The notes beneath the pieces are model-generated. The model searched no databases, was not told the DNA's origin, and was given only the letters and a program-made list of their open reading frames with translations. A stretch of DNA of 59,030 nt from positions 1 to 59,030 of the forward strand of contig JAUWGS010000012.1 in the NCBI GenBank assembly GCA_030606285.1, in the 5' to 3' direction. A program made the position numbers and the translations under genes. Below are positions 174 through 53,220 of the stretch, piece by piece. This stretch comes from Planctomycetales bacterium (lineage in GTDB: Bacteria; 4484-113). Within the stretch, counting starts at the first letter, position 1, and each line of letters opens with the position of its first letter.

Positions 174-294
174 TTGCCATCACGACCGCAGACAGTGGGG
201 GGGCCAGTAGACATCCCTTGCGATTGCGAACGACCATCCCGCTATCTCGTACTACGACCGTACCAACGGCGACCTCAAGTTCGCCATCTATTAT

Positions 295-520
295 TAGGCG
301 GGCAAAGCCCGCAAGGGCGTAGGGAATAGGGATTAGCTAAATCCTAACCCCTAAGCTCTGACCCCTCCACAGACGGGCAAGCCCGGCGTACTCATGGGGC
401 GGCGGGCAAGCATTTATGGCCGCCGCCCTGAGGTATACAGGGAAGAGCGGCGGGGCACAGGTCCCCGCCCTACAGGAAAGCGCGCAAGGGCAATTCGTGA
501 ATTGCCCCTACAAGAGCGGC
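295..520. repeat. Cluster of short hairpin units each followed by CCTAAG/CCCTACAR (REP/MITE-like family)
   Basis: Seen directly: ggattagctaaatcc+cctaag; ggcggcggg..ccgccgccc; gcggcggggcacaggtccccgcc+ctacag (447-477); gggcaattcgtgaattgccc+ctacaag (487-513, identical copy at 44178-44205). Confidence 0.5.
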
Positions 521-2448: not shown

Positions 2449-4800
2449 ATGATCGGGATAAGAGCAGGCAAATTCGCGCTGGGGACCGTCGCAGTTGCGG
2501 CGTGCATTGCGCTTGCGCTCGTGCTTAGCACTTGCGGTGGGGGGAGTGGCAAGAGTGCGGTAGTCCAGGGCTTAAGCCCTGGCTCTTCGCCAGACAATAA
2601 GACCAGCCCTGAAGGGCTAGACTACCAGGCGGATACGACGATTTCCCTCGACCAGACGCTTACAGAGCTTGAGGGGATGGAGAAACCGGAGGGAGTGGAC
2701 GAAGCGCTGTTTGAGGAATTGAAGGATGCGCTGAACGAGGCTCTTACCTGTAGGGCGGCCATTTATGGCCACCGCGATTCTAGCCGGAAAGATGACGGCG
2801 GGGATGAATCCCCGCCCTACAGCGATTCATCCGTGGACGGCGACGGGCACAGCATGCTGTGCCCCTACAAGTCCGTGGCGACACCCCCTACCGGCGAAGT
2901 AAATCGGGTCAACGACCTTACCATCCTCGACAAGGGCGATGGGACATACACGCTCACGTGGCATTACAGGAACCTCGGCGATTACGACCAAGATGGGATT
3001 GTGGGACTACCCGACATCTATCCGCTGGCGGAGCATTTTGGGGAGACCTATGAGCCGACCGATGCGAACTGCATCCAGGCAGTGATTGACGGCAGCAGCA
3101 ATGGGCGCATCGGCATTGAAGAAATCACGCCGATTGCGATGAATTACGCAGTGGACGTGCATCATTACGCGGTAGAAGGCGCGCCCGACCAAGAAGGCCC
3201 ATTTGAGCCGGTCGGCGAAATCGCACAGGATGCGGGAACCGGCGAGGGGCGCCTTGAATACAGCGCAATCATCGAATCCCCAGCCGCGCTGTGGCATAGA
3301 GTGGTGCCCTACGATAGCGAAGGCGAGCCGGGCGAGCCGAGTAATGCCGTGCTGCGGCCCAGCAATGAGCCGATAATCTACGAGGTCAGCCCCACCGAGG
3401 GCTACCAGCACGAGGAATACACGTTTACGGCGGTCGTGACCGGCGCGGAGATGCTTGAATACGCCTGGGACTTCGGCGGCGGCGCGGTGCCCAACACATC
3501 CTCCGATCCCTCACCGACCGTCACCCTCGCCGACGCAGGCGTTTACTCAGCCTCCCTCACCGTCACCAACGCCTACGGCGAAGCCTCCTTCCCTTTCACC
3601 CTCACCATCTCCGAACGCGACATCTGGGCCCATACCTGGGGAACTAGCGGTACGGATATTACGACTGACATAGTTATTGATGGAAATGGTTATGTATACC
3701 TCGCCGAAGTAGGTGGAGTACTGGTGAAGTTCAGCAGTTCCGGCGAGTTTCGCTGGGCGCGCTGCTGGGACACGGGTGGCCACCAGACTTTGACCGACTT
3801 GTGGCTAATGGACGATGGACGGCTCCTGGGCTGTGGCTCGTGCGCAGCTTCGGGTGGGGACGGATACGACGATGTGCTGTTGATTGAGTACAGCGACGAT
3901 GGAGATGTGTTGCGTGCGATGACATGGGGTACGGAGGATCACGAGCGCGCCAGTCAATTTGTGATAGACGACGCAGGCAACATCTATTTGTGTGGAAGCT
4001 GGACCGAAGCGTGGGGAGATGAGTCGGTGCTGCTAATGAAGCTCGATGCGGAGTGGAATGTGCTGTGGTCGAAGGTGTGGGGAAGCTTCAGCGATGATGA
4101 GAGCGCTCGCGGCATTGCGCTCAGCGACGGCGCTATATATGTATCGGGCAGCAAGGGCCCCTGGGGCACCGGTGACGCGCTGCTTATGAAGCTGACTCTG
4201 GAAGGCGAGGTGCTCTGGGCGAAAACCTGGGGTACGGAAAAGCATGACTCACTGACCGACCTAGTAATCTGCCCCGACGGGTGCATATATGCTGTGGGGA
4301 CAATTTGGAAACGCGATCCGGACCCTAAAGCCGGAATCATATTGAAATACGATAGGGACGGGAGTCTGTTGGCAGCCAAGGGCTGGAATCCGAACCAGAG
4401 GAGTGGGATTACGAGCATACGTGCTGACCCTTATGGAACGCTGACTGCGGTGGGAAGCGATGGATATGACCTACTGCTTGTCAGACTGGATAGTGACCTG
4501 AATGTGGTCGCGGGTAAGGCCAGGCATCCGGAGGGACACTCGAACCAAGGCGTTAGCTGCGCTTATGACGCTGATTTCAACCTGTATGTCGCTGGGAACG
4601 TACATGATTACCCGCTCGGACAGTGGGAGGACCTTGAGGACAGGAGTTACATCATTGAAGGTGTAGAGGCAGAGGTAGAGGGCACCGTTTGGAGCCCCAA
4701 CGGAGACTCCGCTATTCCTGATGGCACACAAACAGAAGTTACAGGAGTCATCGACGGTAGCTTCGGTGGCTTTGACTTGCTGATATTGAAGAACTATTAG
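2449..4800 (+). CDS. Secreted lipoprotein with dockerin-like Ca-binding repeat pair, PKD domain and SBBP beta-propeller repeats; N-terminal linker contains in-frame repeat-element insertions
   Basis: 783 aa; signal/lipobox LALVLSTCGGGSGKS; DYDQDGIVGLPDIYPLAEHFG and SNGRIGIEEITPIAMNY (dockerin-like); YAWDFGGG...YSASLTVTNAYGE (PKD); repeated WGTSGTD/WGTEDHE/WGSFSDDE/WGTEKHD blocks (SBBP); RBS ggggtgagATG. Confidence 0.75.
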   Translation: MIGIRAGKFALGTVAVAACIALALVLSTCGGGSGKSAVVQGLSPGSSPDNKTSPEGLDYQADTTISLDQTLTELEGMEKPEGVDEALFEELKDALNEALTCRAAIYGHRDSSRKDDGGDESPPYSDSSVDGDGHSMLCPYKSVATPPTGEVNRVNDLTILDKGDGTYTLTWHYRNLGDYDQDGIVGLPDIYPLAEHFGETYEPTDANCIQAVIDGSSNGRIGIEEITPIAMNYAVDVHHYAVEGAPDQEGPFEPVGEIAQDAGTGEGRLEYSAIIESPAALWHRVVPYDSEGEPGEPSNAVLRPSNEPIIYEVSPTEGYQHEEYTFTAVVTGAEMLEYAWDFGGGAVPNTSSDPSPTVTLADAGVYSASLTVTNAYGEASFPFTLTISERDIWAHTWGTSGTDITTDIVIDGNGYVYLAEVGGVLVKFSSSGEFRWARCWDTGGHQTLTDLWLMDDGRLLGCGSCAASGGDGYDDVLLIEYSDDGDVLRAMTWGTEDHERASQFVIDDAGNIYLCGSWTEAWGDESVLLMKLDAEWNVLWSKVWGSFSDDESARGIALSDGAIYVSGSKGPWGTGDALLMKLTLEGEVLWAKTWGTEKHDSLTDLVICPDGCIYAVGTIWKRDPDPKAGIILKYDRDGSLLAAKGWNPNQRSGITSIRADPYGTLTAVGSDGYDLLLVRLDSDLNVVAGKARHPEGHSNQGVSCAYDADFNLYVAGNVHDYPLGQWEDLEDRSYIIEGVEAEVEGTVWSPNGDSAIPDGTQTEVTGVIDGSFGGFDLLILKNY

Positions 4801-4819: not shown

Positions 4820-7800
4820 ATGAGAATACTTGTGTATTCAGCTTTGATGGCCCTGGTATGCACGGTCGCTTTTCTCGTGGTTGACTGCGGAAAGGGCAGG
4901 GATCGTGTAGTTCCAGCGTTTCATCAAGCCAAGGATCTTTCTTTGGCTGGTGCAGTTTCCGGCCAAGTTGATCCGAGGTTTACGGAGGAGGACTACCGTG
5001 TAATGGCGATGCCGCTTTCAGAGCGCATCGCCTACTTGGAGAAAAAACTGAAGGACTTGCTATTCAAGCACTACGGTATCGTTATTGAAGAGGACGTTAC
5101 CGCAGCCAAGAAGGCTTCCTTAGACGACCCGTTCCACAAAGTATGCGTTTACGTAGACGTGGACAACCCCAAAGAGAACCTCCAGCTCGTTCAGACCGAA
5201 AACAAGTGGGAATGGACGCTCTCATTCCTTGAACGATTATGCGGCGACTACGACTGGAACGGCACCGTGAGTATCGCCGACATTACACCAATTGCGATGT
5301 ACTTCAACAAGAAAGAGGAAGACCTGGACTGGATGGACGGGCCATATCACGTTGACCGGCTAGCCAACGACGATGGCAAAATCAGCATCGCGGATATTAC
5401 GCCTTTGGCCATCAACTTCGGCTATCAACTCACAGGATACAACGTCTACTGGCAGGACAGCACCGGAGGTGACTGGAGGCTCATTGCGGAATGGGACGAG
5501 TTTGAGCGCTCGAGTGGAACCTACCGGGACGAATGGTCCGACGTCTTCACCAAAAAGAGCATCTATCGTGAAACGTCACCCCCGATCACCATTGAGACGT
5601 CAAGCGGTAATGACCTGATTCGGGTGAAGCCGGTATTCAGCAGCGGGGAGCAGGACATCCCCAGCGAAACCGACATCTTTGGCCACGAGCTTGATTCTGA
5701 AGATTATCCGGACGGCAATCACGCCCCGGTGGCTGAAATCACGGCTGATCCGACGGAAGCGGAATGCGACGAGACCGTGACCTTCGACGCAAGCGGGAGC
5801 ACCGATGAGGACGAGGACACGCTCTACTACGAGTGGGACTGGGATGTATCGAACGGTGCTCAATGGTTCGATTCCGGTACCACAGATACAGCCGAATGGC
5901 AGTATACTTTGCCGCGAATCTATACGGCCACCGTGTGTGTAACTGACCAAGTGGGTGATTGGCACACTGACACGGTTGAAGTCGAGGTAGAGTATGTCCC
6001 TGCGACTGAACCGCCGACTGTCATCGAGTTCACGGTGGTTCCTGAACGCGCAACACTGCCAGCGACCATCAAGTTTATGACCCGAGCACAAGACAGGGAC
6101 GGGGACATCATTGAGACCATCGCGTTCGATCCTGATGGCGACATTGACTGGGACGACACGTTCGATGATGAGGACGAGGAGTTTACTGTGGAGAATCCCG
6201 GCGCACCCGATTACGAGAAGGTCTATAAAGCGGAGTATGATGTCACGTTCAACAGATCGGATGACTGCATTGCCGATGACATCCACACGACGCTAATCAT
6301 GTGCAGAACCAAAGTCGCCGATGATGATGAGAACGATGATGACACAATTAACATAACCCCGCTGTCGCTCACGCACGCGAGTCCGGTCATTCACAGTGTA
6401 TCGATCAGTCCCAAGGTGGGAACGTCCGACCCAGGCAACCCGAATGATCCCGTGACGGTAACCATTGACGCTTCAGATGCTTCAGACGCAGATGGGCCCG
6501 ACCAGTTCCCAACGAGGTTCGTCTTCTCGTTCGGTGATGGGTCAGTCGATCACACGGAGTCGTACGGCCAGCAGGGTTTTGACGGAATAGCGACCCATCC
6601 TTACAACGATCCCGGCGTATACCAAATCACAGTCACATGCTACGACGACGACCACACGGATATGGAAGGGAGCTGTAACGAACCTTCCAAGCACGTATTC
6701 GAATACAGTTGGGAGGACGACGAAGACGAAGATGGTAAAGTTTGGATTTACTTCGCTCCCGTATGGAAGCGTAACGAGGTCGTTGACAACGGAAGCCATA
6801 TCATTGATGGTGCGGACTGGCATAGCCTGGGCATACCCAGCATCGCCATCGATATTAATCCCAACACGGGATTCCCGGGAGTTGCATATGTTGGTCAGCC
6901 GGACGAAGAGGACCGCGAAGAGGACTGGCCGCTTATGTGTGCTCTCTTCTCTGAGAAGGGGAGCGAGGAAAACGGATGGAGCGACCCTGACATGGTCTGG
7001 ATGGAGAGCCTCGAAGAGGAAATTGCCAATATCGGTCAGCAATGCGACCTGACTTACCAGCCCTCAACCGCGCTACCGCTAGTAGCGGCTACGATAGAGA
7101 GGTATGAATTCGGGACAGGGCTGCCGCTGCCGGGGGGAATAGTACTGTACTATGGAGATGGAGGCTCTTGGCAATACTCATGGTTGGTGGATGACAACAC
7201 TGCATTACATTCATCGCCAATTCGCCTGGTTTCAATTGTGACGGGAAATGGCGGCAACTTCGTTCACTACAAGTTCGTGGAAGGTTTCGAAGAGGACCCT
7301 GCACTAATGGAGATATGTGACACTTCTGACCTTAACCAGTATGTCATCGTCGAGTCAGTCGGCTGGGAAACTGGCGGGGATGTGGGCAGGTCGCACGATC
7401 AGAAGCCATATCAAGGCAATCCGTACCAGAGAAAGAACTCGACGGTTTACAGCTACTCCCTGGAGTCAACGGACTACTTGAAATACGAACTCCTGTACTA
7501 CAATTATTTCTATCAGCAATATGATTGGACCGGCGTCCCCGAGACAATATCCCCGCCAGCACCTTCAACATACAGTACGAGGATGATTGCACATGATTAC
7601 CTTGGCGCTAAGTATGGTGTCCTTTGGGTCGACGGCAGCTCGGGCCTGAACTTCAAGCAGAGCGACTGGCAAAATGAGGACGAAGTGGAACCGGATGTCG
7701 GATCGTATTGCGACTTCGACTACGACCAAACCACGGGGATCATATGCGTCGCTTACGAGAAGCTGAGCGGCCAGAACATGGAGATCTACGTGGAAGTATA

Positions 7801-7960
7801 CATGGACGACGATTGGGTGGAGCTGGAAGATCCTATTGATAACCTGGGTGTAGGTGGTATATCACACTTGGACCTTGACGTTTCTAACGGTTACATTTAC
7901 GTAGCATACAGCAAGAACGACAACATCTACTGTGCGGTGATCGATTTCTACGATAGGTAG
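4820..7960 (+). CDS. Large highly acidic secreted protein with two dockerin-like repeat pairs and a PKD domain
   Basis: 1046 aa; signal peptide MRILVYSALMALVCTVAFLVV; DYDWNGTVSIADITPIAMYF and NDDGKISIADITPLAINFG; PKD block VTFDASGSTDEDEDTLYYEWDWD...YTATVCVTD; D/E-rich; RBS aaggagg 10 nt upstream; 19 nt after previous gene (operon). Confidence 0.75.
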   Translation: MRILVYSALMALVCTVAFLVVDCGKGRDRVVPAFHQAKDLSLAGAVSGQVDPRFTEEDYRVMAMPLSERIAYLEKKLKDLLFKHYGIVIEEDVTAAKKASLDDPFHKVCVYVDVDNPKENLQLVQTENKWEWTLSFLERLCGDYDWNGTVSIADITPIAMYFNKKEEDLDWMDGPYHVDRLANDDGKISIADITPLAINFGYQLTGYNVYWQDSTGGDWRLIAEWDEFERSSGTYRDEWSDVFTKKSIYRETSPPITIETSSGNDLIRVKPVFSSGEQDIPSETDIFGHELDSEDYPDGNHAPVAEITADPTEAECDETVTFDASGSTDEDEDTLYYEWDWDVSNGAQWFDSGTTDTAEWQYTLPRIYTATVCVTDQVGDWHTDTVEVEVEYVPATEPPTVIEFTVVPERATLPATIKFMTRAQDRDGDIIETIAFDPDGDIDWDDTFDDEDEEFTVENPGAPDYEKVYKAEYDVTFNRSDDCIADDIHTTLIMCRTKVADDDENDDDTINITPLSLTHASPVIHSVSISPKVGTSDPGNPNDPVTVTIDASDASDADGPDQFPTRFVFSFGDGSVDHTESYGQQGFDGIATHPYNDPGVYQITVTCYDDDHTDMEGSCNEPSKHVFEYSWEDDEDEDGKVWIYFAPVWKRNEVVDNGSHIIDGADWHSLGIPSIAIDINPNTGFPGVAYVGQPDEEDREEDWPLMCALFSEKGSEENGWSDPDMVWMESLEEEIANIGQQCDLTYQPSTALPLVAATIERYEFGTGLPLPGGIVLYYGDGGSWQYSWLVDDNTALHSSPIRLVSIVTGNGGNFVHYKFVEGFEEDPALMEICDTSDLNQYVIVESVGWETGGDVGRSHDQKPYQGNPYQRKNSTVYSYSLESTDYLKYELLYYNYFYQQYDWTGVPETISPPAPSTYSTRMIAHDYLGAKYGVLWVDGSSGLNFKQSDWQNEDEVEPDVGSYCDFDYDQTTGIICVAYEKLSGQNMEIYVEVYMDDDWVELEDPIDNLGVGGISHLDLDVSNGYIYVAYSKNDNIYCAVIDFYDR

Positions 7961-8084
7961 AATCGTAGTTCGGGCAGGATGTTGGACTCAGACGCGCAGC
8001 CCGCTCCTTTAAGGCGGGCTCCGCTGACATCCTGGTCGCAGTTTAACCGCGCCATTGACTTCGGCTATTCCGCGTGACACAATA

Positions 8085-8265
8085 GATATGTCCGCTGGTT
8101 CAAGGAAGGCGGTGAGAATCCGCCGCGGGCCAGCCACTGTGAGGTGGACCGGACCGCCGATATCCCATTGGCCCCGCCCGGCGCGGGGCTGAGAAGGGGG
8201 CGGAACCGGGATGAAACCGAGCCAGGAAACTTGTCGGCGGGCGACAACACGAGCTTCTGGGATTA
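8085..8265 (+). promoter_or_regulatory. Cobalamin (adenosylcobalamin) riboswitch
   Basis: Conserved core seen directly: aaggaaggcGGTGAGAATCCgccgcgggccaGCCACTGtga (B12 box) then gagaagggggcggaaccgggatgaaaccgagccaggaaac; sits 5' of an ABC importer and TonB receptor operon. Confidence 0.7.
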
Positions 8266-8387
8266 AAGTGAAGTGTTGCGAACGCTGCATACAAACTGCG
8301 AACCGACCCCACCCCGCAGAGCCGCGCTCGCCTGACGCATTTTGCGCCAGCACTCCTGTTCCCGAAGCCCGCGTGAAGTGAAACGCT

Positions 8388-9194
8388 ATGGCGGAAGCGC
8401 TGGCTGCAATCGGGGTGTCCGCGGGATACAACTCCCGGCGCGTTTTGCACGACCTGAATCTCACCGTGGAGACGGGCGAGTTCGCCGCGCTCATCGGCCC
8501 CAACGGCGCGGGCAAGACCAGCCTTTTACGCCTCTTCACCAACCGCATCCGGCGCAGTGCAGGGACAGTGCGCGTGATGGGCACGGAGGCGCGCACGATG
8601 CCGGCGGCGGTGCGCGGGGCGACCATCGGCGTGCTCACGCAGGAGCGGGCGGCGCCGGTGCCGCTGAGCGTGTGGGAAATGGTAATGCTGGGACGGCTGC
8701 CGCACCTGGGGCCACTGGCACAGCCCCGGACGCATGACCGCGAAACCGTGGAGCGGACGCTGGCGGAGCTTTCACTGAGCGATTTCACAACTCGGCGCTT
8801 TACCGAGCTATCGGGCGGGGAGAGGCAGCGAGTGCTGCTCGCGCGCGCGATGGCGCAGGAGCCGAAGATACTGCTGCTCGACGAACCGACGGCACATCTG
8901 GACCTCACGTACCAGAAGGAGCTGATGGACGCGCTGCTCAAGCTTCGCGAGACGCGGGGGCTTACGGTGCTGGCGAGCCTGCACAATCTGTCGCTTGCGG
9001 GTAGCTACGCCGAGCGGCTCGTGCTGCTAAACGAGGGGCGCATCGTCGCCGACGGCACGCCCGCGGATGTGCTCAAGCTGGAGCGCTTAGAAGAGGTCTA
9101 CCACACGCGCCTCGTGCTGCTTACCGGGCACAACGGCGCGCCTATCGTAACTATAGAACCGGAGAACCGAAATGAGAACACTCGCAACGGTTAG
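8388..9194 (+). CDS. btuD: ABC transporter ATP-binding protein, FecE/BtuD family (B12/iron-complex import)
   Basis: Walker A GPNGAGKTSLLR, signature LSGGERQRVLLARA, Walker B ILLLDEPTAHLD; downstream of cobalamin riboswitch. Confidence 0.85.
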   Translation: MAEALAAIGVSAGYNSRRVLHDLNLTVETGEFAALIGPNGAGKTSLLRLFTNRIRRSAGTVRVMGTEARTMPAAVRGATIGVLTQERAAPVPLSVWEMVMLGRLPHLGPLAQPRTHDRETVERTLAELSLSDFTTRRFTELSGGERQRVLLARAMAQEPKILLLDEPTAHLDLTYQKELMDALLKLRETRGLTVLASLHNLSLAGSYAERLVLLNEGRIVADGTPADVLKLERLEEVYHTRLVLLTGHNGAPIVTIEPENRNENTRNG

Positions 9195-10116
9195 CCTTGT
9201 AGTTGTACTGGCAATCACCGCGCTGGCCGCGCCTACAGCGGCCGTAATCGTCGTTGGCGGCGAAGTCGATCCGTTCGCGCCGGTGGATTACTTCGGAGTT
9301 GAGTTCGAGCCAGCGGAGTATTCGCGGATTGTGACGCTGGCGCCGAACCTTACCGAAATGGTCCACTTCCTGGGCGCGTTCGAGCGCGTAGTAGGCGCCA
9401 CGAACTACGACACGTACCCGCCAGAGGTTAAGGACTGCGAGCGCATCGGTGGCTTTATTGATCCTGATATTGAGCGCATAGTCGCGCTGCAGCCGGATCT
9501 CGTGCTGGCGTACCGGGGGAATCCGCTGCCGGTGATATACAAGCTCAAGGAGCTCGACGTGCCCGTGTTTGTGCTGGACAATCCGAGCACGCTGAGCGAG
9601 GTCTACACGCAGATGATGCAGCTTGGAAGGCTGCTGATGGTGAGTGAGGAGCAAGAGACCAGGATCAGGCGGTTCAAAAGCGAGCTTGACGGCGCGTTTG
9701 AACTGGGCGCAAGGCTCCCCCGCCATCCGCGAGTGATGATGCTCGCGTGCAGCCTGCAGCCGCCGTATTACGCCGCAGGGCACGGCACGTTCATTGACGA
9801 CCTGATACGCCTGGCGGGAGGCGACAACGCGTTTGGCAGCGAAGGCTTCAGCGTGGTGACGCCGGAGGAGTTCATCGTGGCGGACCCGGAATTTCTGCTC
9901 ATCCCGGAGATACCAGAAGAGGGATTCCGCGAAAAGATGCTGGAAGCGCTCCGAGCGCAGCCGTTCCTCGCTCAAACTACCGCGCTGGAAACCGGCCAGG
10001 TGCTGTTTATCGACCAGGACATTCTCTCGCGCCCCGGCCCGCGCATCACCGAAGCGCTAGCAATCCTGCAGGACGCGCTCGTCGCGGCGACCACCGAGAG
10101 CGGAAACGATGAATAG
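9172..10116 (+). CDS. btuF: Periplasmic substrate-binding protein, BtuF/FecB (class III/cluster A) family
   Basis: Signal peptide; RIVTLAPNLTEMVHFLGA...IVALQPDLVLAY pattern typical of TroA-like B12/siderophore binding proteins; overlaps btuD end. Confidence 0.75.
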   Translation: MRTLATVSLVVVLAITALAAPTAAVIVVGGEVDPFAPVDYFGVEFEPAEYSRIVTLAPNLTEMVHFLGAFERVVGATNYDTYPPEVKDCERIGGFIDPDIERIVALQPDLVLAYRGNPLPVIYKLKELDVPVFVLDNPSTLSEVYTQMMQLGRLLMVSEEQETRIRRFKSELDGAFELGARLPRHPRVMMLACSLQPPYYAAGHGTFIDDLIRLAGGDNAFGSEGFSVVTPEEFIVADPEFLLIPEIPEEGFREKMLEALRAQPFLAQTTALETGQVLFIDQDILSRPGPRITEALAILQDALVAATTESGNDE

Positions 10117-11092
10117 CGAGAGCAGACGCGCGGTGAAGATCGCACTGGCACTCATCGCCGCGCTTGCGCTCATCGTCGTGCTGTCGCTCCTCGTCGGCTC
10201 AGCGGGTTTCAAACCCGCAAGCGAGAAGTTCGGGCTCATCGTGTGGCAGCTCCGGCTGCCACGAGTGCTGCTGGCATTCGCAGTCGGCGGGATGCTTGCG
10301 GTCTCCGGCGCGTACATGCAGTGTTTATTCCGCAACGCGCTCGCCGAGCCGTACATCACGGGCGTGTCGGCCGGTTCCGGGCTGGGCGCAGTGATTGCGC
10401 TGAGCGCGCTACCGTTTTCGTGGTTCTTGGCGAACCTGACACTGCCGCTTGCTGCGTTTGCCGGCGGACTGGCGATCACGCTATTGCTGCTAATACTGCT
10501 GCGCGAGCCCGGCACCGCGCCGCTGAAGCTACTGCTTCTGGGCATCGCGCTGGGAACGCTGGCGTCGGCGATGATGGCGTTTGTGCTGCTGCGGTTTCCC
10601 GATCGGACGCTGAAAAGCGCGTTGTTCTGGCTGTTTGGCAGCCTCACCGGCGCAAGCTGGCCCCAGGTGACGATTGCGCTTGTGGTGCTGGCCACGGGGC
10701 TTGCGTGGGGAGTTTTGCGCCACCGGATGCTGGACGCTCTGCTGCTGGGCACGGAGGACGCGCACAACCTCGGCGTGAACGTCACCGCCGCATCGCGCGC
10801 GCTGCTAATCGCGGCGACGCTGCTGGCGTCGGTATCGGTTGCGTTCGCGGGCATCGTTACGTTCGTGGGACTGGTGGTGCCGCACGTCATCAGATTGCTG
10901 CTGGGCGCAAGCCACTTGCGGCTGATTGTGCTATCGGCGCTTGCAGGAATGGCGCTGATGGGAATCGTTGACCTGCTCGCGCGAACGGTCGTGGCGCCCG
11001 GTGAGATTCCGCTTTCCATCATCACTTCGCTCATAGGCGCGCCGTTCTTCATCCTGCTGCTGCTGCGCACGAGGGGGCAGACCATTGGCTAG
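10109..11092 (+). CDS. btuC: FecCD-family ABC permease (BtuC-like)
   Basis: 327 aa, about 9 TM helices, motifs LLLGxxxAxxLGVN and GxIxFVGLVVPH typical of FecCD/BtuC. Confidence 0.85.
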   Translation: MNSESRRAVKIALALIAALALIVVLSLLVGSAGFKPASEKFGLIVWQLRLPRVLLAFAVGGMLAVSGAYMQCLFRNALAEPYITGVSAGSGLGAVIALSALPFSWFLANLTLPLAAFAGGLAITLLLLILLREPGTAPLKLLLLGIALGTLASAMMAFVLLRFPDRTLKSALFWLFGSLTGASWPQVTIALVVLATGLAWGVLRHRMLDALLLGTEDAHNLGVNVTAASRALLIAATLLASVSVAFAGIVTFVGLVVPHVIRLLLGASHLRLIVLSALAGMALMGIVDLLARTVVAPGEIPLSIITSLIGAPFFILLLLRTRGQTIG

Positions 11093-12989
11093 GCTCTGGT
11101 GGTTTGCGCTGTTCCTGCTTGCGCTGAACATGGCGGCTTTTGCGCAGGAAGCTGACACCGCTTCGGAGCAGGTTACAGCTGAAGCCGCCGAGCAAAACGA
11201 ACCGGCCGACCTCGGCGTTATCGAAGTTCGGGCGGAGGCCATCACGCTTTCGGCGCGCGCGCTGCCGGGGCAGAGCGTTATTGTGCTGAACCGCGACGAA
11301 TGGAGCGCAACGGCGCGAAGCATCGCCGACGTGCTGGAACAGGCTGCGCCGCTTACGCTTGCGCGCACCGGCGGCGAGGGCAGCCTGGCCACGCTATCGC
11401 TGCGCGCTGCAGGCTCGGCGGACACGCTTATTATGCTAAACGGAGTCCCGGTGGCGCTGCCGGGCGGAACGCCGGTGGACCTGAGCCTAATTGATCTGTC
11501 ATCAGTGGAGCGCATCGAGATTGTTCCGGGCGCGGCCTCGCTATATGGCACGCGGGCACTTGGCGGCATCGTCAATATCGTGCTGCGCGGCGACACGTCT
11601 GCGGAGGCTGGCACGACGGTAAAACTCTCAGGCGGCAGTTTCGGTACGTACCGCGGCGGGCTTTCACGCGTTCGCAGCGATGCCGACCGACAGGAGGCGC
11701 TGATAGCGTCGGTTTTCTCTACGCGTGGCAATTTCGGCTTCGAGACCGTAAACGGCCTAATCCGCACGCGGCGTAACAACGACGCACAGCGGGTCAATCT
11801 GCTCTGGCAACGCCAGGACTTCTCGGCGGATTCGCTGCGCACGAGCTTTGCATCGCTGCACGCGCTCCGGCGCGGCGTGCCAGGCTTCGCCGAGTTTCCC
11901 ACCGAACACGCACGGCTCACCGAGGAGATATTCACCGCGGGAATAAGCGAATTCGAGCCTAGGCCAACGGGAAAGTGGGGGCGCGAATGGTCGGTTGCGC
12001 TTGCGCAGGGCTACACGCGATTCCGCGACGATGCGCCGTTGATGGGCGCACCAGTGCGTTCGCGCACGGCAGACGCAACGCTGCGCGGAACGCTGTTACT
12101 CGGCAAGGACGAGCGCGACGGTCGCAGCGAAGCGGCGTTTGCGCTTACAGGCAATGCGATGTCCGCAGCGGATTACGGTGATCCAAAACGCATTAGCGGG
12201 CGTGTCAACGCGCTACGCTGCTGGCGCACCGGGGATTTCGCGTTCACGCCTTCGTTTGCGCTGGACTTATGCGAGGGCGAAGGCGCTGAAGCCAGCTGGG
12301 ATTTGGGCGTTGCATGGCAGCCTTCAAAGCATCTGACTGTCAGCGCGAACGCGGGGCGCAGTTTCCGCTACCCGGAGTTCGCCGAGCTTTACTATCCGTC
12401 GCAGGGATTCGTGCGCGGAAATCCGAGCCTCGAATCCGAGCACGCTTACTATGCGAACCTGGGGCTTTCGCTGGAGGGAAACGGCGGCGAGCTTGTAGTG
12501 GCCGCGTTCCTGCGCGAGCAGCACGACACCATCAAATTCCTGCCCGTTTCGGCGCAGTGCATCCGTCCGGTAAACACCGGCGAAACGCGCGCGCGCGGGC
12601 TGGAGACGACCGGGCACCTGCGGCTGTCTGAAAACGTTACAGCGAGCGCAAGCTATGCGCTGACAGACGCGGAGTTTGCACGCTCCGGTATTGATTTTGC
12701 GCAGACGCCGCGCCACCGCTTCTACGGGGCGGTCGCGTACGACGACGGCGGATGGAGCGCGGAGGTTGCGCACTTTCGCGAGTCGGCGCAGAGCGCGGAC
12801 CTCTTCGGCAGCATTCGCGTGCCGGGCAAGGCGCTGTGGAACCTATCGCTTGCGCGGCGGTCGCGCGGTGAGCGCTGCGGTAAACTATCAGTAACGGTGC
12901 GCAACGTCTTTGACCGAAGCGCGCGGGACTTCTGGGACCTGCCGCTGCCCGGGCGCAGCGTTGAAGTCTCGTGGGAACAAACGTTTTAG
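11085..12989 (+). CDS. btuB: TonB-dependent outer-membrane receptor (BtuB-like)
   Basis: Signal peptide; plug domain motifs (IVPGAASLYGTRALGGIVNIV), C-terminal aromatic residue (...SWEQTF); translationally coupled to btuC. Confidence 0.8.
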   Translation: MARLWWFALFLLALNMAAFAQEADTASEQVTAEAAEQNEPADLGVIEVRAEAITLSARALPGQSVIVLNRDEWSATARSIADVLEQAAPLTLARTGGEGSLATLSLRAAGSADTLIMLNGVPVALPGGTPVDLSLIDLSSVERIEIVPGAASLYGTRALGGIVNIVLRGDTSAEAGTTVKLSGGSFGTYRGGLSRVRSDADRQEALIASVFSTRGNFGFETVNGLIRTRRNNDAQRVNLLWQRQDFSADSLRTSFASLHALRRGVPGFAEFPTEHARLTEEIFTAGISEFEPRPTGKWGREWSVALAQGYTRFRDDAPLMGAPVRSRTADATLRGTLLLGKDERDGRSEAAFALTGNAMSAADYGDPKRISGRVNALRCWRTGDFAFTPSFALDLCEGEGAEASWDLGVAWQPSKHLTVSANAGRSFRYPEFAELYYPSQGFVRGNPSLESEHAYYANLGLSLEGNGGELVVAAFLREQHDTIKFLPVSAQCIRPVNTGETRARGLETTGHLRLSENVTASASYALTDAEFARSGIDFAQTPRHRFYGAVAYDDGGWSAEVAHFRESAQSADLFGSIRVPGKALWNLSLARRSRGERCGKLSVTVRNVFDRSARDFWDLPLPGRSVEVSWEQTF

Positions 12990-13003
12990 AAAGGGGAAAC
13001 GAC

Positions 13004-14392
13004 ATGAGAACGAGCTTATTAATGTGGATCGCAGTTGCAGCGTTGCTGCTCGCATCGTGCGGCGGCGGGGGGGGCGGCGGCCCTACGCCTGAACCTCCCA
13101 ACGGGAACGGCAATGGCGCGACCGGCGTCGTATGGTTCTACACCTACCCCACCGGCGAGCAGTGGGTTGTCGCGCCGCCGGTGACGGCTCAACCCGCAAG
13201 CGGCGTAACGATGGCCGCCGATGGTCAGATATACACGTTTAACGCGCGCGACGATGGGAGCTTTTATTACACGTTCGCCGAGGGAGGCGTCCTCACGGTG
13301 AGCGTGAACTACACGGACGCGAGCGGCAACACGAAAAACGTCACTGCCACGCCGTTCAGCATCGAGCAGCATCTGACGCACGACTTCGTCCTGACGGGCG
13401 CAGCGCCAAACGACATGGTCTTCGCTAACGACTGTTGCTACATCGTCAACTCGATGGACAACAACATGTCCATCTACGACACCGCCGACTTCACCCGAAT
13501 CGGGGGAATGACGTTCCCCGAATGGTCGTCGCCGTCGTACATCGTCGTGGGCGCGGAGTTCGGCTTCGTCGCCTGCAACGGCAACAACACCATCTACGCG
13601 TTCGACCCGGCGGACGGCACCGAGCAGTGGTCGGTGCAGCTTGAGTCGGGCGGGCTGGCGTTTCTGGGGCCCGGCAGGCTGTGGGCGAACGAGGACTACG
13701 TGTTTGTGCCGCTGGCGAACATCTACGAGTTCGGGCAGGCGGGCGATGAAACGCTCTACAATCCGGCGCAGGTCGCGGTAATAGGCATTGAGAGCCACCT
13801 GATGGAGTTTGCGATTACGCTGTCGGGCGAAAACGCGGTGGAGATTGCGCCGGTGGGCGAAGACCTGCTGGCAATCTCCCAGGCGGGGAACGTGTCGTTT
13901 GACGAGGACTACAATCCGTTTGTAACCACAACGAGCTTCATTGACGTCTACAGTCTGGATACGATGAGGATTGTGGAGAGCGTCAGCCTCGGCGTGGTCG
14001 GCGCAGGCACGCTGCTCTACGACGAGGAGCGCAGCCGCCTGCTGGTGGGTAGCCTGGTGAACGGGCGCGCGTACGAGATAAGCACCGAAAGCTGGGCGAT
14101 TGAGCGCGGGCGCACAAATCCCATTCGCATCGGCACGGGCAAGACGTTCATCTCCGATATGGTGCTGACGGAAGACGCGCTGCTGGCTGCGAGCTTCAAC
14201 GAGGACGCAATCTTCGCGCTCGACTTGGAGGACTACGCCGTGGGCGTCTGGCCGCTACCCGCGCCGCTGTCGCTGGAGCAGGAAACGCTGTTCCTAGCGG
14301 GCCCGCAGGAGCTTTACTACGACGGCACGGCGGGCGCGCTGCTAATCCTCGAAGGCGTCGCCAACCGCATCGCGCGGTTTGATCTGCCATAG
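13004..14392 (+). CDS. Surface lipoprotein with YVTN/YncE-like beta-propeller repeats, distal gene of the riboswitch-controlled btu operon (candidate BtuG-like B12-binding protein)
   Basis: ATG at 13004 with RBS aaagggga; lipobox LLLASCGGGGGGG; repeated propeller-like blocks (IYAFDPADG..., IYEFGQAGDE..., AYEISTESW...); 14 nt after btuB stop. Confidence 0.65.
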   Translation: MRTSLLMWIAVAALLLASCGGGGGGGPTPEPPNGNGNGATGVVWFYTYPTGEQWVVAPPVTAQPASGVTMAADGQIYTFNARDDGSFYYTFAEGGVLTVSVNYTDASGNTKNVTATPFSIEQHLTHDFVLTGAAPNDMVFANDCCYIVNSMDNNMSIYDTADFTRIGGMTFPEWSSPSYIVVGAEFGFVACNGNNTIYAFDPADGTEQWSVQLESGGLAFLGPGRLWANEDYVFVPLANIYEFGQAGDETLYNPAQVAVIGIESHLMEFAITLSGENAVEIAPVGEDLLAISQAGNVSFDEDYNPFVTTTSFIDVYSLDTMRIVESVSLGVVGAGTLLYDEERSRLLVGSLVNGRAYEISTESWAIERGRTNPIRIGTGKTFISDMVLTEDALLAASFNEDAIFALDLEDYAVGVWPLPAPLSLEQETLFLAGPQELYYDGTAGALLILEGVANRIARFDLP

Positions 14393-30415: not shown

Positions 30416-31819
30416 TTACCCCTTCTTAATCTTGTCTTCCAGCTTACGGATCAACTGCTGCACACCCAATTCAAGCACAGATGCTTTCCCCCCGTCAAGG
30501 AAAGACCGCCTAAGATTCCTGAATTCATCTCCAAGCCTCTTCTGCCTACGCAAACTGTAACAAGGCACCTTCAACTTCCGCAGTTGCGTCTTATTGATGC
30601 TGACAGTTCCAACACCATGTTTCATTGCTTCAATCTGGATTCTCCCAGCGCTAGTATGCATGAATAGATGAAGGAACGCAGCATCATATTGCTTTAGTCT
30701 AATGATGTGCAGGTAGTCGGTGGCAACTCCGATGTCTCTATCACTCAGAATAGGAGCTGTCTTACCAGCGCTGCCCACGCCCACCCGGCAAAAGACAAGG
30801 TCGCCAACGCGTGTCGTCGCACGCTCACTGTCCATCAGCGAACCCGGCTTGATGTACCGAGGATCTTTTAAGTAATCAACCCCTAGGACAGTGAGATTGG
30901 TTGCGTGAAGAAAGCGCTTTCCGCTCTTGCTGAAGCGTCTATCCGCACCGTACAGAGTACGCCCGCTAGTAATGTCACTGGTAATCTCTTCGAGATTCAT
31001 CCACTCGCATTTAAATTCACGGTCAAGAGACGTAGCAGGTTTGGCGGTGACCGGTAATCCTTCCACGAAATCTCCAGATGACAGAATAGTCGTTCTAGCG
31101 CGATTAGGGCTGTCGTATTCAACCAACCTGATCCTATCCCGAACATGTCCTGAAAAAGGGCGCTTACGAAGCACAACCGCCGCTGTTTTCGCTGTTGTGT
31201 AATCAAACGTGTCTCTAGGTAGTCTCAGCACAGTAAGGACTTGACATACATCTGTCATATGACTGCGCACGTACTTGTCACGAAGATTCGTGACCGCGCC
31301 CTCAGGCAGTACGATGCCAATGTACCCACCGGAAGAGCATAGCCTGATAAACCTCTCAAGGAATAGAACTTCGATTGGCTGAGAAGAACGGCCTACTCCT
31401 AAATGGTACTGGTTTAGCACTCTGGGGTCGTTGATACGGTCATACCAAGCGCTGAACGGCGGGTTCCCAACTACAAGGTCGTACTTGAAATCTGCAAGGA
31501 TTCGCCTTGCTTTAGAATCGTGCGACTCGATGTCAAGCGTATCAGCGCAAACGAAGTTGCTCCGCCCGAAACTAGAAGCACAGTGAGCAACCCATCTTTT
31601 GTCAATATCAGCCCCGAATAAGCTTACATGCGGCCACCTTTCACTTACAGCCTTTAGAAAAGTCCCGCTGCCAACAGCCGGGTCAACGGCTCTCTGGAAA
31701 ATGACACTCGGCACTTCATCGAGGATTGCGGAAACGACCCATGTAGGCGTAAAGTACTGATTATGTGGCTGCCTATGCGGCCGTTCTCTGGTGGTTAGCT
31801 TAGCATCCATCTGGACCAA
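30416..31819 (-). CDS. Gamma-class N6-adenine DNA methyltransferase with fused C-terminal target-recognition domain (TaqI-like)
   Basis: Motif order FxGxG (DPAVGSGTF) then NPPF (VVGNPPFSAW) is gamma class; C-terminal roughly 200 aa resembles an HsdS-type TRD; low GC. Confidence 0.7.
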   Translation of the reverse strand: MVQMDAKLTTRERPHRQPHNQYFTPTWVVSAILDEVPSVIFQRAVDPAVGSGTFLKAVSERWPHVSLFGADIDKRWVAHCASSFGRSNFVCADTLDIESHDSKARRILADFKYDLVVGNPPFSAWYDRINDPRVLNQYHLGVGRSSQPIEVLFLERFIRLCSSGGYIGIVLPEGAVTNLRDKYVRSHMTDVCQVLTVLRLPRDTFDYTTAKTAAVVLRKRPFSGHVRDRIRLVEYDSPNRARTTILSSGDFVEGLPVTAKPATSLDREFKCEWMNLEEITSDITSGRTLYGADRRFSKSGKRFLHATNLTVLGVDYLKDPRYIKPGSLMDSERATTRVGDLVFCRVGVGSAGKTAPILSDRDIGVATDYLHIIRLKQYDAAFLHLFMHTSAGRIQIEAMKHGVGTVSINKTQLRKLKVPCYSLRRQKRLGDEFRNLRRSFLDGGKASVLELGVQQLIRKLEDKIKKG

Positions 31820-36879: not shown

Positions 36880-36970
36880 GGAGCTGACCTCCCACTGCAA
36901 TTATAGCCCAATAGGTGACAGTTAGGCTTTTGCAGTCTACAAGCCCTTCAATATCCGGTCGAAGTCTAAA

Positions 36971-47671: not shown

Positions 47672-47747
47672 TCGGGGCGTGGCTCAGTCCGGTTAGAGCG
47701 CAGCGTTCGGGTCGCTGAGGTCGCGAGTTCGAATCTCGCCGCCCCGA
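47672..47747 (+). tRNA. tRNA-Pro (anticodon CGG)
   Basis: Cloverleaf read by hand: acceptor cggggcg/cgccccg, D-arm gctc..gagc, anticodon stem cagcg/cgctg with loop ttCGGgt, T-arm gcgag-ttcgaat-ctcgc, discriminator A, CCA not encoded. Confidence 0.85.
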
Positions 47748-50517: not shown

Positions 50518-50836
50518 TGCCGTAAGCGATTATAGCAAAGGAGTTCGCGCGCGCGGCTCCCCAACCGCGAATAATGGTAATTACTCCATATTCGGCCCGG
50601 GGAGGGAGGATGGGGGGAGGGGACCCCCGGGCCGAGAGTGAGTTAGGCTCGTACTGTGAAGCAGCACTTTGCCTATGGGGCACCTCTCGATGACCCCAGA
50701 GAGTTGTTGGGGAGGTCAACCCTCACTATAAGTATACCCTCTAGCGGAGCAAATTGCTTGATATTTCAGCATATTTCGCGAAATCCCTTTATCTGTCGCG
50801 CCGCAGCGTTTGGCGTGATAGAATCGCCTGCAAGAG

Positions 50837-51196: not shown

Positions 51197-51280
51197 TCCC
51201 CGCGGCTCAGCGCTGCGCTCCTTCAACCGAAAGGCTTGCGCGGGTATAATACTCATAACCTTATGCCAAGCGGGGAAACT

Positions 51281-52906: not shown

Positions 52907-53220
52907 CCGCCGGACGCTTAGCGGCACTCGATCCCGTCGAAAGCCTGCGCTATGAGTGAGCGCGGCAGTGCATCTCTGCGGGGGGCTCCAGCTCAGTAAT
53001 AAATGGCGAATCTGAGTTCGGTGTCTGTGACATAGCTAATTGCGGGACAACCGTTGACGGTCTTAAGCGAGGGATAGCTTAGATCCACATCGTCGTTATC
53101 TACGGTGACTGGAGTTCGTCATCGACGAAGTGTTCCCGTTCAAGGACGCGGCGAAGGCGCACGAAAAGCTCGAAAACCGCCGTTCCACCGGCAAGCTGTT
53201 GTTGAAGCTGTAGTTGTGAC

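What the first reader, a model, noticed from the sequence alone, without database searches (positions are those of the whole stretch)
8085..14392. Cobalamin-riboswitch operon btuD-btuF-btuC-btuB ending in a beta-propeller lipoprotein (possible BtuG analogue)
A B12 riboswitch (GGTGAGAATCC...GCCACTG) precedes five tightly coupled genes: ATPase, periplasmic binding protein, permease, TonB-dependent receptor, then a 462-aa lipoprotein with YVTN-like propeller repeats. In Bacteroides, BtuG is a surface-exposed beta-propeller lipoprotein that captures B12 for BtuB and is encoded beside btuB under riboswitch control. This high-GC, apparently non-Bacteroidetes genome shows an architecturally equivalent but probably unrelated lipoprotein, suggesting convergent or undescribed B12-capture machinery.
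Basis: partly seen in the sequence, partly recalled or inferred. Interest (0 to 1): 0.65.

Follow-up and report, generated by a model that had tools for sequence, protein, structure and literature searches.

The report
B12-riboswitch BtuB operon with new propeller lipoprotein
A vitamin-B12-sensing RNA switch controls a five-gene B12 import operon whose last gene encodes a lipoprotein of an undescribed family that always sits beside a BtuB-like outer-membrane B12 receptor, so lipoprotein-assisted B12 capture, known only from Bacteroidota, may also exist in other bacteria.

Summary
A cobalamin riboswitch (RF00174, 89 bits) lies at 8079-8252. It precedes five coupled + strand genes: ABC ATPase, binding protein, FecCD/BtuC-like permease, BtuB-like TonB-dependent receptor, and a 462-aa lipoprotein.

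The AlphaFold2 model (pLDDT 85) shows a disordered Gly/Pro tether, a beta-sandwich and a seven-bladed propeller.

The lipoprotein matches no Pfam or NCBIfam family above cutoff and is rare. It always follows a BtuB-like receptor (25 loci plus the window). Every locus with enough upstream DNA (11 of 11, protein identity down to about 25-30%) carries the riboswitch. One locus holds only riboswitch, receptor and lipoprotein.

It is not a BtuG member: none of 29 relatives hits PF16819. It is not unrelated either. Profile comparison places both in the YVTN propeller superfamily, and each is as far from the other as from an archaeal S-layer propeller. BtuK shares the domain order but no detectable sequence similarity.

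Conservation is concentrated on one predicted propeller face.

The most likely role is a corrinoid-binding partner of the receptor. Binding, surface exposure and complex formation are untested.

This is a new variant of a known kind, of moderate interest.

The parts
8055..8083 (+). Sigma-70-like promoter candidate (TTGACT, 17 nt, TG-CACAAT) just upstream of and overlapping the riboswitch start
   Evidence: Consensus scan. It scores 9 of 12 and 0.4 such sites are expected by chance in the region. This is a weak lead, not evidence of function.
8079..8252 (+). Cobalamin riboswitch aptamer (RF00174)
   Evidence: 89.3 bits against a gathering score of 31.5, E 9e-21, full model. The homologous element is found upstream of the same operon in 10 further loci.
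8253..8387 (+). Leader or expression platform between the aptamer and the first start codon. Its first ~60 nt are nearly invariant among loci whose proteins are only 50-55% identical.
   Evidence: Alignment A4. No intrinsic terminator was found. The minimum-free-energy fold is no more stable than shuffles. The mechanism is unresolved.
8388..9194 (+). ABC transporter ATPase (BtuD-like)
   Evidence: Pfam ABC_tran E 6e-33. NCBIfam matches to heme, corrinoid and F420-0 ATPases are all below equivalog cutoffs.
9172..10116 (+). Periplasmic substrate-binding protein, class Peripla_BP_2 (BtuF-like)
   Evidence: Pfam PF01497 E 7e-30. NCBIfam BtuF scores 75 bits against a cutoff of 234.
10109..11092 (+). 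FecCD-family permease (BtuC-like)
   Evidence: Pfam PF01032 E 4e-82. The best NCBIfam match is BtuC, 251 bits against a cutoff of 334.
11085..12989 (+). TonB-dependent receptor, BtuB-like. It has a signal peptide ending AFA/QE, a Plug domain, a barrel and a C-terminal Phe.
   Evidence: Pfam Plug plus TonB_dep_Rec. The best NCBIfam match is TonB-B12, 125.6 bits against a cutoff of 599.7. The best solved relatives are E. coli BtuB at E 2e-19; the next is PqqU at 4e-10.
13004..13060 (+). Lipoprotein signal peptide with lipobox L-A-S-C (Cys19)
   Evidence: Read directly from the sequence. The Cys is present in at least 90% of 29 family members.
13061..13132 (+). Gly/Pro-rich disordered tether (CGGGGGGGPTPEPPNGNGNG...)
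   Evidence: pLDDT is below 50 for residues 1-40. A Gly run after the Cys is common across the family.
13133..13363 (+). N-terminal beta-sandwich (Ig-like) domain, residues ~44-120
   Evidence: The AlphaFold2 model has about eight strands here at pLDDT ~90. One family member hits Pfam Big_6. This domain is less conserved than the propeller.
13373..14389 (+). Seven-bladed YVTN-type beta-propeller, residues 124-462. The N-terminal strand 124-130 closes blade 7.

Best explanation
This is a corrinoid (vitamin B12) uptake operon that a cobalamin riboswitch switches off when the cell has enough B12.

Four genes encode a standard import route. A BtuB-like TonB-dependent receptor carries the vitamin across the outer membrane. 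A BtuF-like binding protein and a BtuC/BtuD-like ABC importer carry it across the inner membrane.

The fifth gene encodes an outer-membrane lipoprotein of an undescribed family. It has a lipid anchor, a flexible Gly/Pro tether, an Ig-like beta-sandwich and a seven-bladed YVTN-type propeller. This family has co-diverged with, and is genomically inseparable from, BtuB-like receptors.

I propose that it works at the outer-membrane step. The conserved face of the propeller binds a corrinoid, or the receptor's loops, and passes the vitamin to the receptor. That is the job BtuG does in Bacteroides.

Shown: the riboswitch, the gene identities at family level, the fold, the strict linkage to receptor and riboswitch, and conservation concentrated on one predicted face.

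Inferred: corrinoid binding, physical complex with the receptor, and which side of the outer membrane the protein faces.

My sub-estimates:
- functional partner of the receptor in B12 uptake: about 0.75
- direct corrinoid binding: about 0.5
- surface-exposed lid on the receptor: about 0.3
For: - Riboswitch at 89 bits on the same strand, with gene junctions of -23, -8, -8 and +14 nt.
- The receptor's best solved relatives are BtuB, at E 2e-19.
- The lipoprotein family is rare. There are 19 clusters in 5.8 billion sequences, and 22 clusters at 50% identity with E below 1e-30 in 1.84 billion representatives.
- In 25 fetched loci plus the window, the gene directly upstream is a homologous receptor, either overlapping by 4 nt or within 32 nt.
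- Receptor and lipoprotein identities fall in step: 86/87, 50/56, 53/52, 44/42 and 30/29%.
- RF00174 is present in all 11 loci that have enough upstream DNA. These range from 44 to 69% GC, and the lipoproteins go down to about 25-30% identity.
- Locus L028 contains only riboswitch, receptor and lipoprotein, with no ABC genes. This ties the lipoprotein to the outer-membrane step.
- Partner receptors in distant members are also BtuB-like.
- The fold is an Ig-like domain plus a seven-bladed propeller, remotely homologous to the BtuG propeller.
- In the broad family, 32 of 108 residues in the loops predicted to form the 'top' face are at least 70% conserved, against 0 of 52 in 'bottom' loops (Fisher p 9e-7).
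- In BtuG, B12 binds one propeller face and that face points at BtuB (PMC13616437, PMC10404256).
Against: - There is no experimental or docking evidence for B12 binding or for a complex.
- The family is no closer to BtuG than to a generic archaeal YVTN propeller.
- It lacks an alignable counterpart of BtuG's N-terminal SEGxF..NNS segment, which holds the B12 contacts Glu55 and Phe58 of BtuG2 (PMC13616437).
- The conserved loop residues coincide partly with generic YVTN repeat motifs, so part of the one-face conservation may be structural. The faces were assigned from secondary structure and canonical propeller topology, not from coordinates.
- The second-best structural match, YncE, lies beside the receptor PqqU/YncD in E. 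coli, yet its deletion does not affect PQQ uptake (bioRxiv 10.1101/2022.06.07.495086). A propeller gene next to a receptor gene is therefore not proof of a transport role.
- Nothing is known about lipoprotein surface-export signals in this lineage.
Confidence: 0.55

Rival explanations
1. The lipoprotein faces the periplasm. It either receives the corrinoid from the receptor and hands it to the BtuF-like binding protein, or it stabilises or assembles its cognate receptor in the way BamB does. It is not a surface capture protein.
For: - The lipobox Cys is followed by Gly, with no known surface-export signal.
- The structural neighbours YncE (periplasmic) and BamB (periplasm-facing lipoprotein) appear among the hits.
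- There is a weak PQQ_2/BamB Pfam hit, E 8.5e-4, below cutoff.
- All of the linkage evidence fits this reading equally well.
Against: - BamB has eight blades and is not under B12 control. This protein has seven blades, and the PQQ_2 score of 19.5 is below the cutoff of 27.6.
- A disordered tether of more than 20 residues and an extra Ig-like domain are more typical of surface lipoproteins such as Lp49 and BtuK (PMC13616437). From memory and untested here: Neisseria TbpB and fHbp also carry Gly runs after the lipid Cys.
- A dedicated BtuF-like protein already covers the periplasmic step.
Confidence: 0.2
2. The propeller is an enzyme that processes incoming corrinoids or related compounds, for example a hydrolase or lyase like other seven-bladed propeller enzymes, rather than a binding protein.
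For: - A few family members give weak sub-threshold Pfam hits to the Lactonase, SGL, Vgb_lyase and Arylesterase propeller families.
- The conserved polar residues on one face could form an active site.
Against: - The hits are scattered, below cutoff, and differ from member to member.
- No conserved His/Asp/Glu metal-binding constellation was identified.
- The gene is tied to the receptor rather than to salvage or remodelling genes, and in L028 it occurs with the receptor alone.
Confidence: 0.08
3. The lipoprotein is a passenger. It would be a surface or adhesin-like YVTN protein (as Lp49 and YncE are described) that happens to be co-transcribed, with no role in B12 uptake.
For: - The best structural matches, Lp49 and YncE, have no established transport role.
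- PKD-domain proteins, which are typical surface proteins, lie just upstream in the window and in L007.
Against: - Receptor adjacency in 25 loci plus the window and the riboswitch in 11 of 11 assessable loci, across lineages from 44 to 69% GC and with otherwise different flanking genes.
- Purifying selection on the lipoprotein is as strong as on the receptor.
- A 4-nt start/stop overlap with the receptor gene in one subfamily.
Confidence: 0.07
4. It is a true BtuG orthologue acquired from Bacteroidota by horizontal transfer and then diverged.
For: - hhalign against the BtuG family gives 97.1% probability and E 6.7e-11 over blades 1-5.
- The gene position is the same, immediately downstream of btuB under a B12 riboswitch, as in Bacteroides locus L030.
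Against: - None of 29 members hits PF16819 at E no greater than 0.01.
- The family is as close to the archaeal 1l0q propeller as to BtuG.
- It has an extra N-terminal Ig-like domain, and BtuG's conserved N-terminal motif has no counterpart.
- The partner receptors resemble E. coli-type BtuB more than Bacteroides BtuB.
- There is no Bacteroidota-type acidic export signal after the Cys. BtuG has C-D-D; this family has C-G-G-G.
Confidence: 0.03

Closest known systems
BtuG (Pfam PF16819/DUF5074), the surface lipoprotein lid of BtuB in Bacteroides
   Same: - It is a lipoprotein with a seven-bladed propeller.
- It is encoded immediately downstream of btuB under a cobalamin riboswitch.
- It shows remote sequence homology over blades 1-5: hhalign 97.1%, E 6.7e-11.
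- The BtuG2 corrin contacts Gln93, Asn107 and Ser131 lie in the motifs GDVAQS, VVNNS and SPRY. These align approximately with this family's conserved APN136D, VN149S and SS176PSY (PMC13616437).
- Conservation is concentrated on one predicted face.
   Different: - No member reaches the PF16819 model.
- It is no closer to BtuG than to a generic archaeal YVTN propeller.
- It has an extra Ig-like domain and a long Gly/Pro tether.
- BtuG's N-terminal SEGxF..NNS segment, which holds the Glu55 and Phe58 contacts, has no aligned counterpart.
- BtuG has been reported only in Bacteroidetes (PMC6143338). This family occurs in MAGs labelled Planctomycetales.
- B12 binding and lid formation are proven for BtuG and untested here.
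BtuK1/BtuK2 (BT1486/BT1487) of Bacteroides thetaiotaomicron
   Same: - The size is the same: 461 and 448 aa against 462 aa.
- The domain order is the same: lipoprotein, N-terminal Ig/PKD-like domain, C-terminal seven-bladed propeller.
- It is under B12-riboswitch control, and BtuK1 binds cyanocobalamin at nM-pM affinity (PMC13616437, PMC12751083).
   Different: - No significant profile similarity: hhalign 4.2% for BtuK1 and 1.0% for BtuK2.
- BtuK genes lie upstream of btuB in a separate riboswitch unit (PMC13616437). Here the gene is the one coupled directly to the receptor.
- The role of BtuK is itself unresolved.
YVTN/YncE-type seven-bladed propellers (M. mazei S-layer protein 1l0q, E. coli YncE 3vgz, Leptospira lipoprotein Lp49 3bws)
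   Same: - Lp49 is also a lipoprotein and was the top hit in both fold searches. That its N-terminal domain is Ig-like is from memory and was not tested here.
- yncE lies beside the TonB-dependent receptor gene pqqU/yncD.
   Different: - None of these is linked to B12 or to riboswitches.
- YncE is a soluble periplasmic protein, and its deletion has no effect on uptake by PqqU.
- This family has its own conserved motifs (APND, SPSY, FLGPG, S/QFDE, NPI, SFN(T/E)DE, GxAN) and long insertions in the B-C loops of blades 3 and 4.
E. coli btuB and btuFCD B12 uptake system under the cobalamin riboswitch
   Same: It has the riboswitch, the BtuB-like receptor and BtuF/C/D-like components.
   Different: - All components here lie in one operon, in the order D-F-C-B, with an added lipoprotein.
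- All transporter proteins score below the NCBIfam equivalog cutoffs.

Membership tests
Cobalamin riboswitch (Rfam RF00174) | Covariance-model score above the curated gathering score, over the full model | tested here: met
   89.3 bits against 31.5, model positions 1-189, E 9e-21
Cobalamin riboswitch (Rfam RF00174) | Located in the 5' leader of B12 transport or biosynthesis genes on the same strand, conserved in orthologous loci | tested here: met
   It lies 135 nt upstream of the first gene. It is present in 10 further orthologous loci.
Cobalamin riboswitch (Rfam RF00174) | Ligand-dependent switching through an expression platform | tested here: inconclusive
   No intrinsic terminator was found and the fold is not distinctive. 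A conserved ~60-nt block follows the aptamer. The mechanism was not resolved.
BtuB (TonB-dependent vitamin B12 receptor) | Plug domain plus 22-strand-type TonB-dependent barrel with a signal peptide | tested here: met
   Pfam PF07715 and PF00593. The signal peptide and C-terminal Phe were read from the sequence.
BtuB (TonB-dependent vitamin B12 receptor) | Score above the NCBIfam equivalog cutoff (TIGR01779 / NF007926) | tested here: not met
   TIGR01779 is the best family but scores 125.6 bits against a cutoff of 599.7. The same holds for partner receptors in other loci. The protein is therefore BtuB-like, not a certified equivalog.
BtuB (TonB-dependent vitamin B12 receptor) | Closest characterised relatives are BtuB, and the gene is under B12-riboswitch control | tested here: met
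   E. coli BtuB E 2e-19 against the next receptor type at 4e-10; riboswitch.
BtuFCD-type ABC importer | ABC_tran ATPase, Peripla_BP_2 binding protein and FecCD permease | tested here: met
BtuFCD-type ABC importer | NCBIfam equivalog cutoffs for BtuC, BtuD and BtuF | tested here: not met
   BtuC 251 against 334; BtuF 75 against 234; BtuD 128 against 281. Substrate is inferred from the riboswitch.
BtuG (PF16819 / DUF5074) | Match to the Pfam family model that BtuG homologues carry | tested here: not met
   BtuG homologues carry PF16819. None of 29 members of this family hits it at E no greater than 0.01.
BtuG (PF16819 / DUF5074) | Specific sequence affinity to BtuG beyond the general YVTN propeller superfamily | tested here: not met
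   Family against BtuG: E 6.7e-11. Family against archaeal 1l0q: E 2.8e-12. BtuG against 1l0q: E 1.4e-11. The three are equidistant.
BtuG (PF16819 / DUF5074) | Lipoprotein with a seven-bladed propeller, encoded next to btuB under a B12 riboswitch | tested here: met
   Bacteroides locus L030 for comparison.
BtuG (PF16819 / DUF5074) | Conserved N-terminal SEGxF..NNS segment carrying the B12 contacts (Glu55, Phe58 of BtuG2) | tested here: inconclusive
   The hhalign alignment starts after this segment (BtuG column 80). No counterpart was identified, but a structure-based alignment was not possible.
BtuG (PF16819 / DUF5074) | High-affinity corrinoid binding, surface exposure, and a stable lid complex with BtuB | not testable with these tools
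No docking tool or coordinates were available.
BtuK (BT1486/BT1487) | [quoted passage not shown] | tested here: met
   The model has a beta-sandwich at residues 44-120 and a propeller at 124-462. The BtuK architecture is taken from PMC13616437. This is a resemblance in architecture only.
BtuK (BT1486/BT1487) | Detectable sequence homology to BtuK1 or BtuK2 | tested here: not met
   hhalign probability 4.2% (E 0.0098) for BtuK1 and 1.0% for BtuK2. The BtuK sequences were taken from Bacteroides-type locus L030. This was profile against single sequence, so sensitivity was limited.
YVTN / YncE-type beta-propeller superfamily | Significant profile match to archetypal YVTN repeats and a seven-bladed propeller fold | tested here: met
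   [not shown]
BamB (PQQ_2) | Eight-bladed propeller lipoprotein matching PF13360 above cutoff | tested here: not met
   PF13360 scores 19.5 bits against a cutoff of 27.6. The model has seven blades.

The most novel reading that the evidence does not exclude
Lipoprotein-assisted, possibly lipoprotein-capped, TonB-dependent vitamin B12 uptake is not exclusive to Bacteroidota. On this reading, an independent lineage of YVTN propeller lipoproteins carrying an added Ig-like domain was recruited as the obligate surface partner of BtuB in uncultured bacteria labelled Planctomycetota and in other environmental bacteria. It would bind corrinoids on its conserved face and deliver them to the receptor. 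That would be a second origin of the BtuB-BtuG principle.
Probability: 0.3. Interest if true: 0.75.

Novelty: new variant of a known kind. Interest (0 to 1): 0.55.

Why it matters
B12 is produced by a minority of microbes and scavenged by most, so capture machinery shapes competition in communities. So far the extracellular capture proteins BtuG, BtuH, BtuJ and BtuK have been studied almost only in gut Bacteroidota. [quoted passage not shown]

This family is strictly linked to BtuB-like receptors, is under riboswitch control, and occurs in sediment and hypersaline MAGs of other lineages. It gives a concrete, clonable candidate for testing whether the same strategy exists elsewhere, and whether it arose independently from the same propeller superfamily. 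It would also give annotation pipelines a new marker for B12-scavenging loci, because the protein currently has no family assignment.

Tried and rejected
1. Complex prediction. I built 12 receptor-linker-lipoprotein fusions from orthologous loci to test for a lid-like interface.
2. Foldseek against afdb50 was unavailable.
3. Suspected second pair. A second 462-aa ORF (53221-54609, minus strand) overlaps a 748-aa ORF by 4 nt. It turned out to be the HsdS and HsdM subunits of a type I restriction-modification system.
4. BamB-like assembly factor. Rejected on blade number and a sub-threshold Pfam score.
5. BtuK homology. Rejected at sequence level.
6. A specific relationship to BtuG. Rejected by the 1l0q control.
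8. Expression platform. No intrinsic terminator was found and the fold z-score is -0.8, so the regulatory mechanism downstream of the aptamer is left open.
9. Literature searches for YVTN with cobalamin and TonB, for Planctomycetes B12 receptors with lipoproteins, and for DUF5074 found no description of this family.
10. Cluster look-up gave no names or accessions for the window protein.


Full report
**Observation**

Rfam finds a full-length cobalamin riboswitch (RF00174) at window 8079-8252 on the + strand. It scores 89.3 bits against a gathering score of 31.5, with E 9e-21. It is followed after 135 nt by five + strand genes whose junctions are -23, -8, -8 and +14 nt.

Pfam and NCBIfam identify the five genes as follows:
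- 8388-9194: ABC ATPase.
- 9172-10116: Peripla_BP_2 binding protein.
- 10109-11092: FecCD permease. The best NCBIfam match is BtuC.
- 11085-12989: Plug plus barrel TonB-dependent receptor. The best NCBIfam match is TonB-B12.
- 13004-14392: a 462-aa protein with no family above cutoff.

All NCBIfam scores are below the equivalog cutoffs, so the btu names are best-match inferences backed by the riboswitch. The receptor's closest solved relatives are E. coli BtuB at E 2e-19, nine orders of magnitude ahead of the next receptor type. Downstream genes are on the other strand, so the lipoprotein gene ends the operon. A promoter-like site overlaps the riboswitch start. No intrinsic terminator was found in the leader.

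**The lipoprotein**

The sequence begins MRTSLLMWIAVAALLLAS-C, which is a lipobox, followed by a Gly run and a Pro-rich stretch. I built an AlphaFold2 model from a 19-sequence alignment; it has pLDDT 85.4 and pTM 0.84. The model shows three parts:
- a disordered N-terminus, residues 1-40;
- a beta-sandwich, residues about 44-120;
- 28 strands from residue 124 to 462, which is seven blades, with the N-terminal strand closing the last blade.

**Distribution and genomic context**

The family is rare:
- 19 clusters at 90% identity among 5.8 billion sequences.
- 22 clusters at 50% identity with E below 1e-30 among 1.84 billion representatives.

I fetched loci for close members, for members at about 50% and about 43% identity, and for a distant subfamily at about 30% identity. 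I also fetched two outliers, L028 and L029.

In every locus with upstream sequence (25 loci plus the window), the preceding gene is a receptor homologous to the window's. It either overlaps by 4 nt or lies within 32 nt. Receptor and lipoprotein identities decline together: 86/87, 50/56, 53/52, 44/42 and 30/29%.

RF00174 is present in all 11 distinct loci where enough upstream DNA exists: the window, L001, L005, L007, L010, L012, L021, L022, L025, L028 and L029. These loci range from 44 to 69% GC and have otherwise different neighbours.

L028 carries only riboswitch, receptor and lipoprotein, with no ABC genes. This ties the lipoprotein to the outer-membrane step.

Partner receptors of distant members are also BtuB-like.

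Related genome records are titled 'Planctomycetales bacterium' or 'bacterium' MAGs, so this is not Bacteroidota.

**Relationship to known B12 lipoproteins**

According to the literature:
- BtuG homologues were detected only in Bacteroidetes (PMC6143338).
[quoted passage not shown] I tested each relationship in turn.

BtuG family model:
- BtuG homologues carry Pfam PF16819.
- None of 29 members of the new family hits that model at E no greater than 0.01.

Remote homology to BtuG:
- A broad family profile does reach BtuG chains in the PDB, at E about 2e-3 for the full-length profile.
- A profile of blades 1-3 reaches them at E 1e-4 to 1e-8.
- Profile-profile comparison with a 20-sequence BtuG alignment gives 97.1% probability and E 6.7e-11 over 213 colinear columns.

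Control:
- The same profile matches the archaeal S-layer YVTN propeller 1l0q just as well: 97.6%, E 2.8e-12.
- BtuG matches 1l0q equally: 97.4%, E 1.4e-11.
- BtuG paralogues are themselves as distant from one another as from 1l0q.

The new family and BtuG therefore belong to one YVTN/YncE-type superfamily, with no special affinity for each other.

BtuK:
- I recovered BtuK1 and BtuK2 sequences from a Bacteroides-type locus, L030.
- They show no significant similarity to the family profile: 4.2% and 1.0%.
- They share its size and domain order.

**Clues to mechanism**

I assigned strands to blades from the model's secondary structure and the YVTN repeat register. The D-A and B-C loops form the canonical 'top' face of a propeller. 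In the broad family these loops hold 32 of 108 residues that are at least 70% conserved. The A-B and C-D loops hold 0 of 52 (Fisher p 9e-7). The long insertions also lie in top-face loops.

In BtuG, B12 binds one propeller face, and that face points at BtuB (PMC13616437, PMC10404256). The BtuG2 contacts Gln93, Asn107 and Ser131 lie in the motifs GDVAQS, VVNNS and SPRY. I checked the numbering against BtuG3. These motifs align approximately with the family's conserved APN136D, VN149S and SS176PSY.

There are three caveats:
- These positions are also generic YVTN motif positions.
- BtuG's N-terminal segment carrying Glu55 and Phe58 has no aligned counterpart.
- The faces were inferred from topology, not from coordinates.

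**Conclusion**

The operon is a riboswitch-controlled corrinoid uptake system. Its fifth gene defines an undescribed lipoprotein family: tether, Ig-like domain, seven-bladed YVTN propeller. This family is an obligate genomic partner of BtuB-like receptors.

The best-supported mechanism is that it binds corrinoid, the receptor, or both through its conserved face, and assists the outer-membrane step as BtuG does.

My estimates are:
- functional partnership with the receptor: about 0.75
- direct corrinoid binding: about 0.5
- surface lid: about 0.3

The rivals are a periplasm-facing acceptor or stabiliser, an enzyme, a passenger surface protein, and a transferred BtuG orthologue. YncE is a cautionary case. 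It is the second-best structural match and lies beside the receptor PqqU, yet it is dispensable for PQQ uptake.

I could not predict the complex or dock B12. Binding assays and multimer prediction are the decisive next steps.

I rate this a new variant of a known kind, with interest 0.55.

Noticed in passing
window 8253-8315 (and L001, L005, L007, L010 leaders): About 60 nt just 3' of the riboswitch aptamer (GAGCTTCTGGGA..AAGTGAAGTGTTGCGAACGCTGCA.ACAA.CTGC) are almost invariant among loci whose proteins are only 50-55% identical (alignment A4). This is presumably the expression platform. No terminator or clear RBS-sequestering helix was found.
   Followed up: partly
window 2449-4800 (+) and 4820-7960 (+): Two large PKD-domain proteins (783 and 1046 aa) end 119 nt before the riboswitch. 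A 1021-aa PKD protein occupies the same position in L007, and a 543-aa one lies downstream in L001. They are outside the riboswitch unit. Any relation to B12 uptake is unknown, although BtuK carries a PKD domain.
   Followed up: no
window 35119-36900 (-): A 593-aa protein has an N-terminal TIR domain (PF13676, E 4e-9) followed by many TPR repeats. It could be a defence or signalling protein.
   Followed up: no
window 53221-54609 (-), 54606-56852 (-), 50789-52927 (-), 30416-31819 (-): A type I restriction-modification module is present: HsdS (Methylase_S) overlaps by 4 nt an N6_Mtase/HSDR_N protein. Next to it is a 712-aa ORF with no Pfam match. A separate N6_Mtase/Eco57I gene lies at 30416-31819. 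In L001 an Eco57I/N6_Mtase gene is the upstream neighbour of the btu operon.
   Followed up: partly
window 12971 / 13004 / 13022: The start codon of the lipoprotein gene is ambiguous. A Shine-Dalgarno-like AAAGGGG lies 5-6 nt before 13004. All three starts keep the lipobox.
   Followed up: partly
L028 43-555 (-) against 195-359 (+): A called minus-strand gene of 170 aa with no Pfam hit overlaps the 89.8-bit cobalamin riboswitch that precedes the receptor. It is probably a spurious gene call.
   Followed up: no
L012 9966-11183 and L027 1148-4235: In MAG 'Planctomycetales bacterium 4484_113' the N-terminal part of the lipoprotein ORF does not align and appears frame-shifted. In L027 the receptor is split over two frames. 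These could be assembly errors or pseudogenes.
   Followed up: no
L030 913-2298 (Bacteroides-type btu operon 1): The BtuK1 homologue carries a precomputed PF16819 (DUF5074) hit, the same Pfam family as BtuG, while BtuK2 carries PKD_3. In addition, BtuG1-like P0174 matches the archaeal 1l0q propeller (E 6e-9) better than its own paralogues BtuG2 and BtuG3 (E 1e-5 to 1e-4). The BtuG/BtuK propellers are therefore a very loose group.
   Followed up: partly
L016 3285-4229: In the most distant branch examined (P0045, E 1e-23), the Peripla_BP_2 gene lies downstream of the lipoprotein instead of upstream of the receptor. The contig is too short to check for a riboswitch.
   Followed up: no
window 47673-47747 (+): A single tRNA gene (Rfam RF00005, 65 bits) is present. 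It is unrelated to the finding.
   Followed up: no
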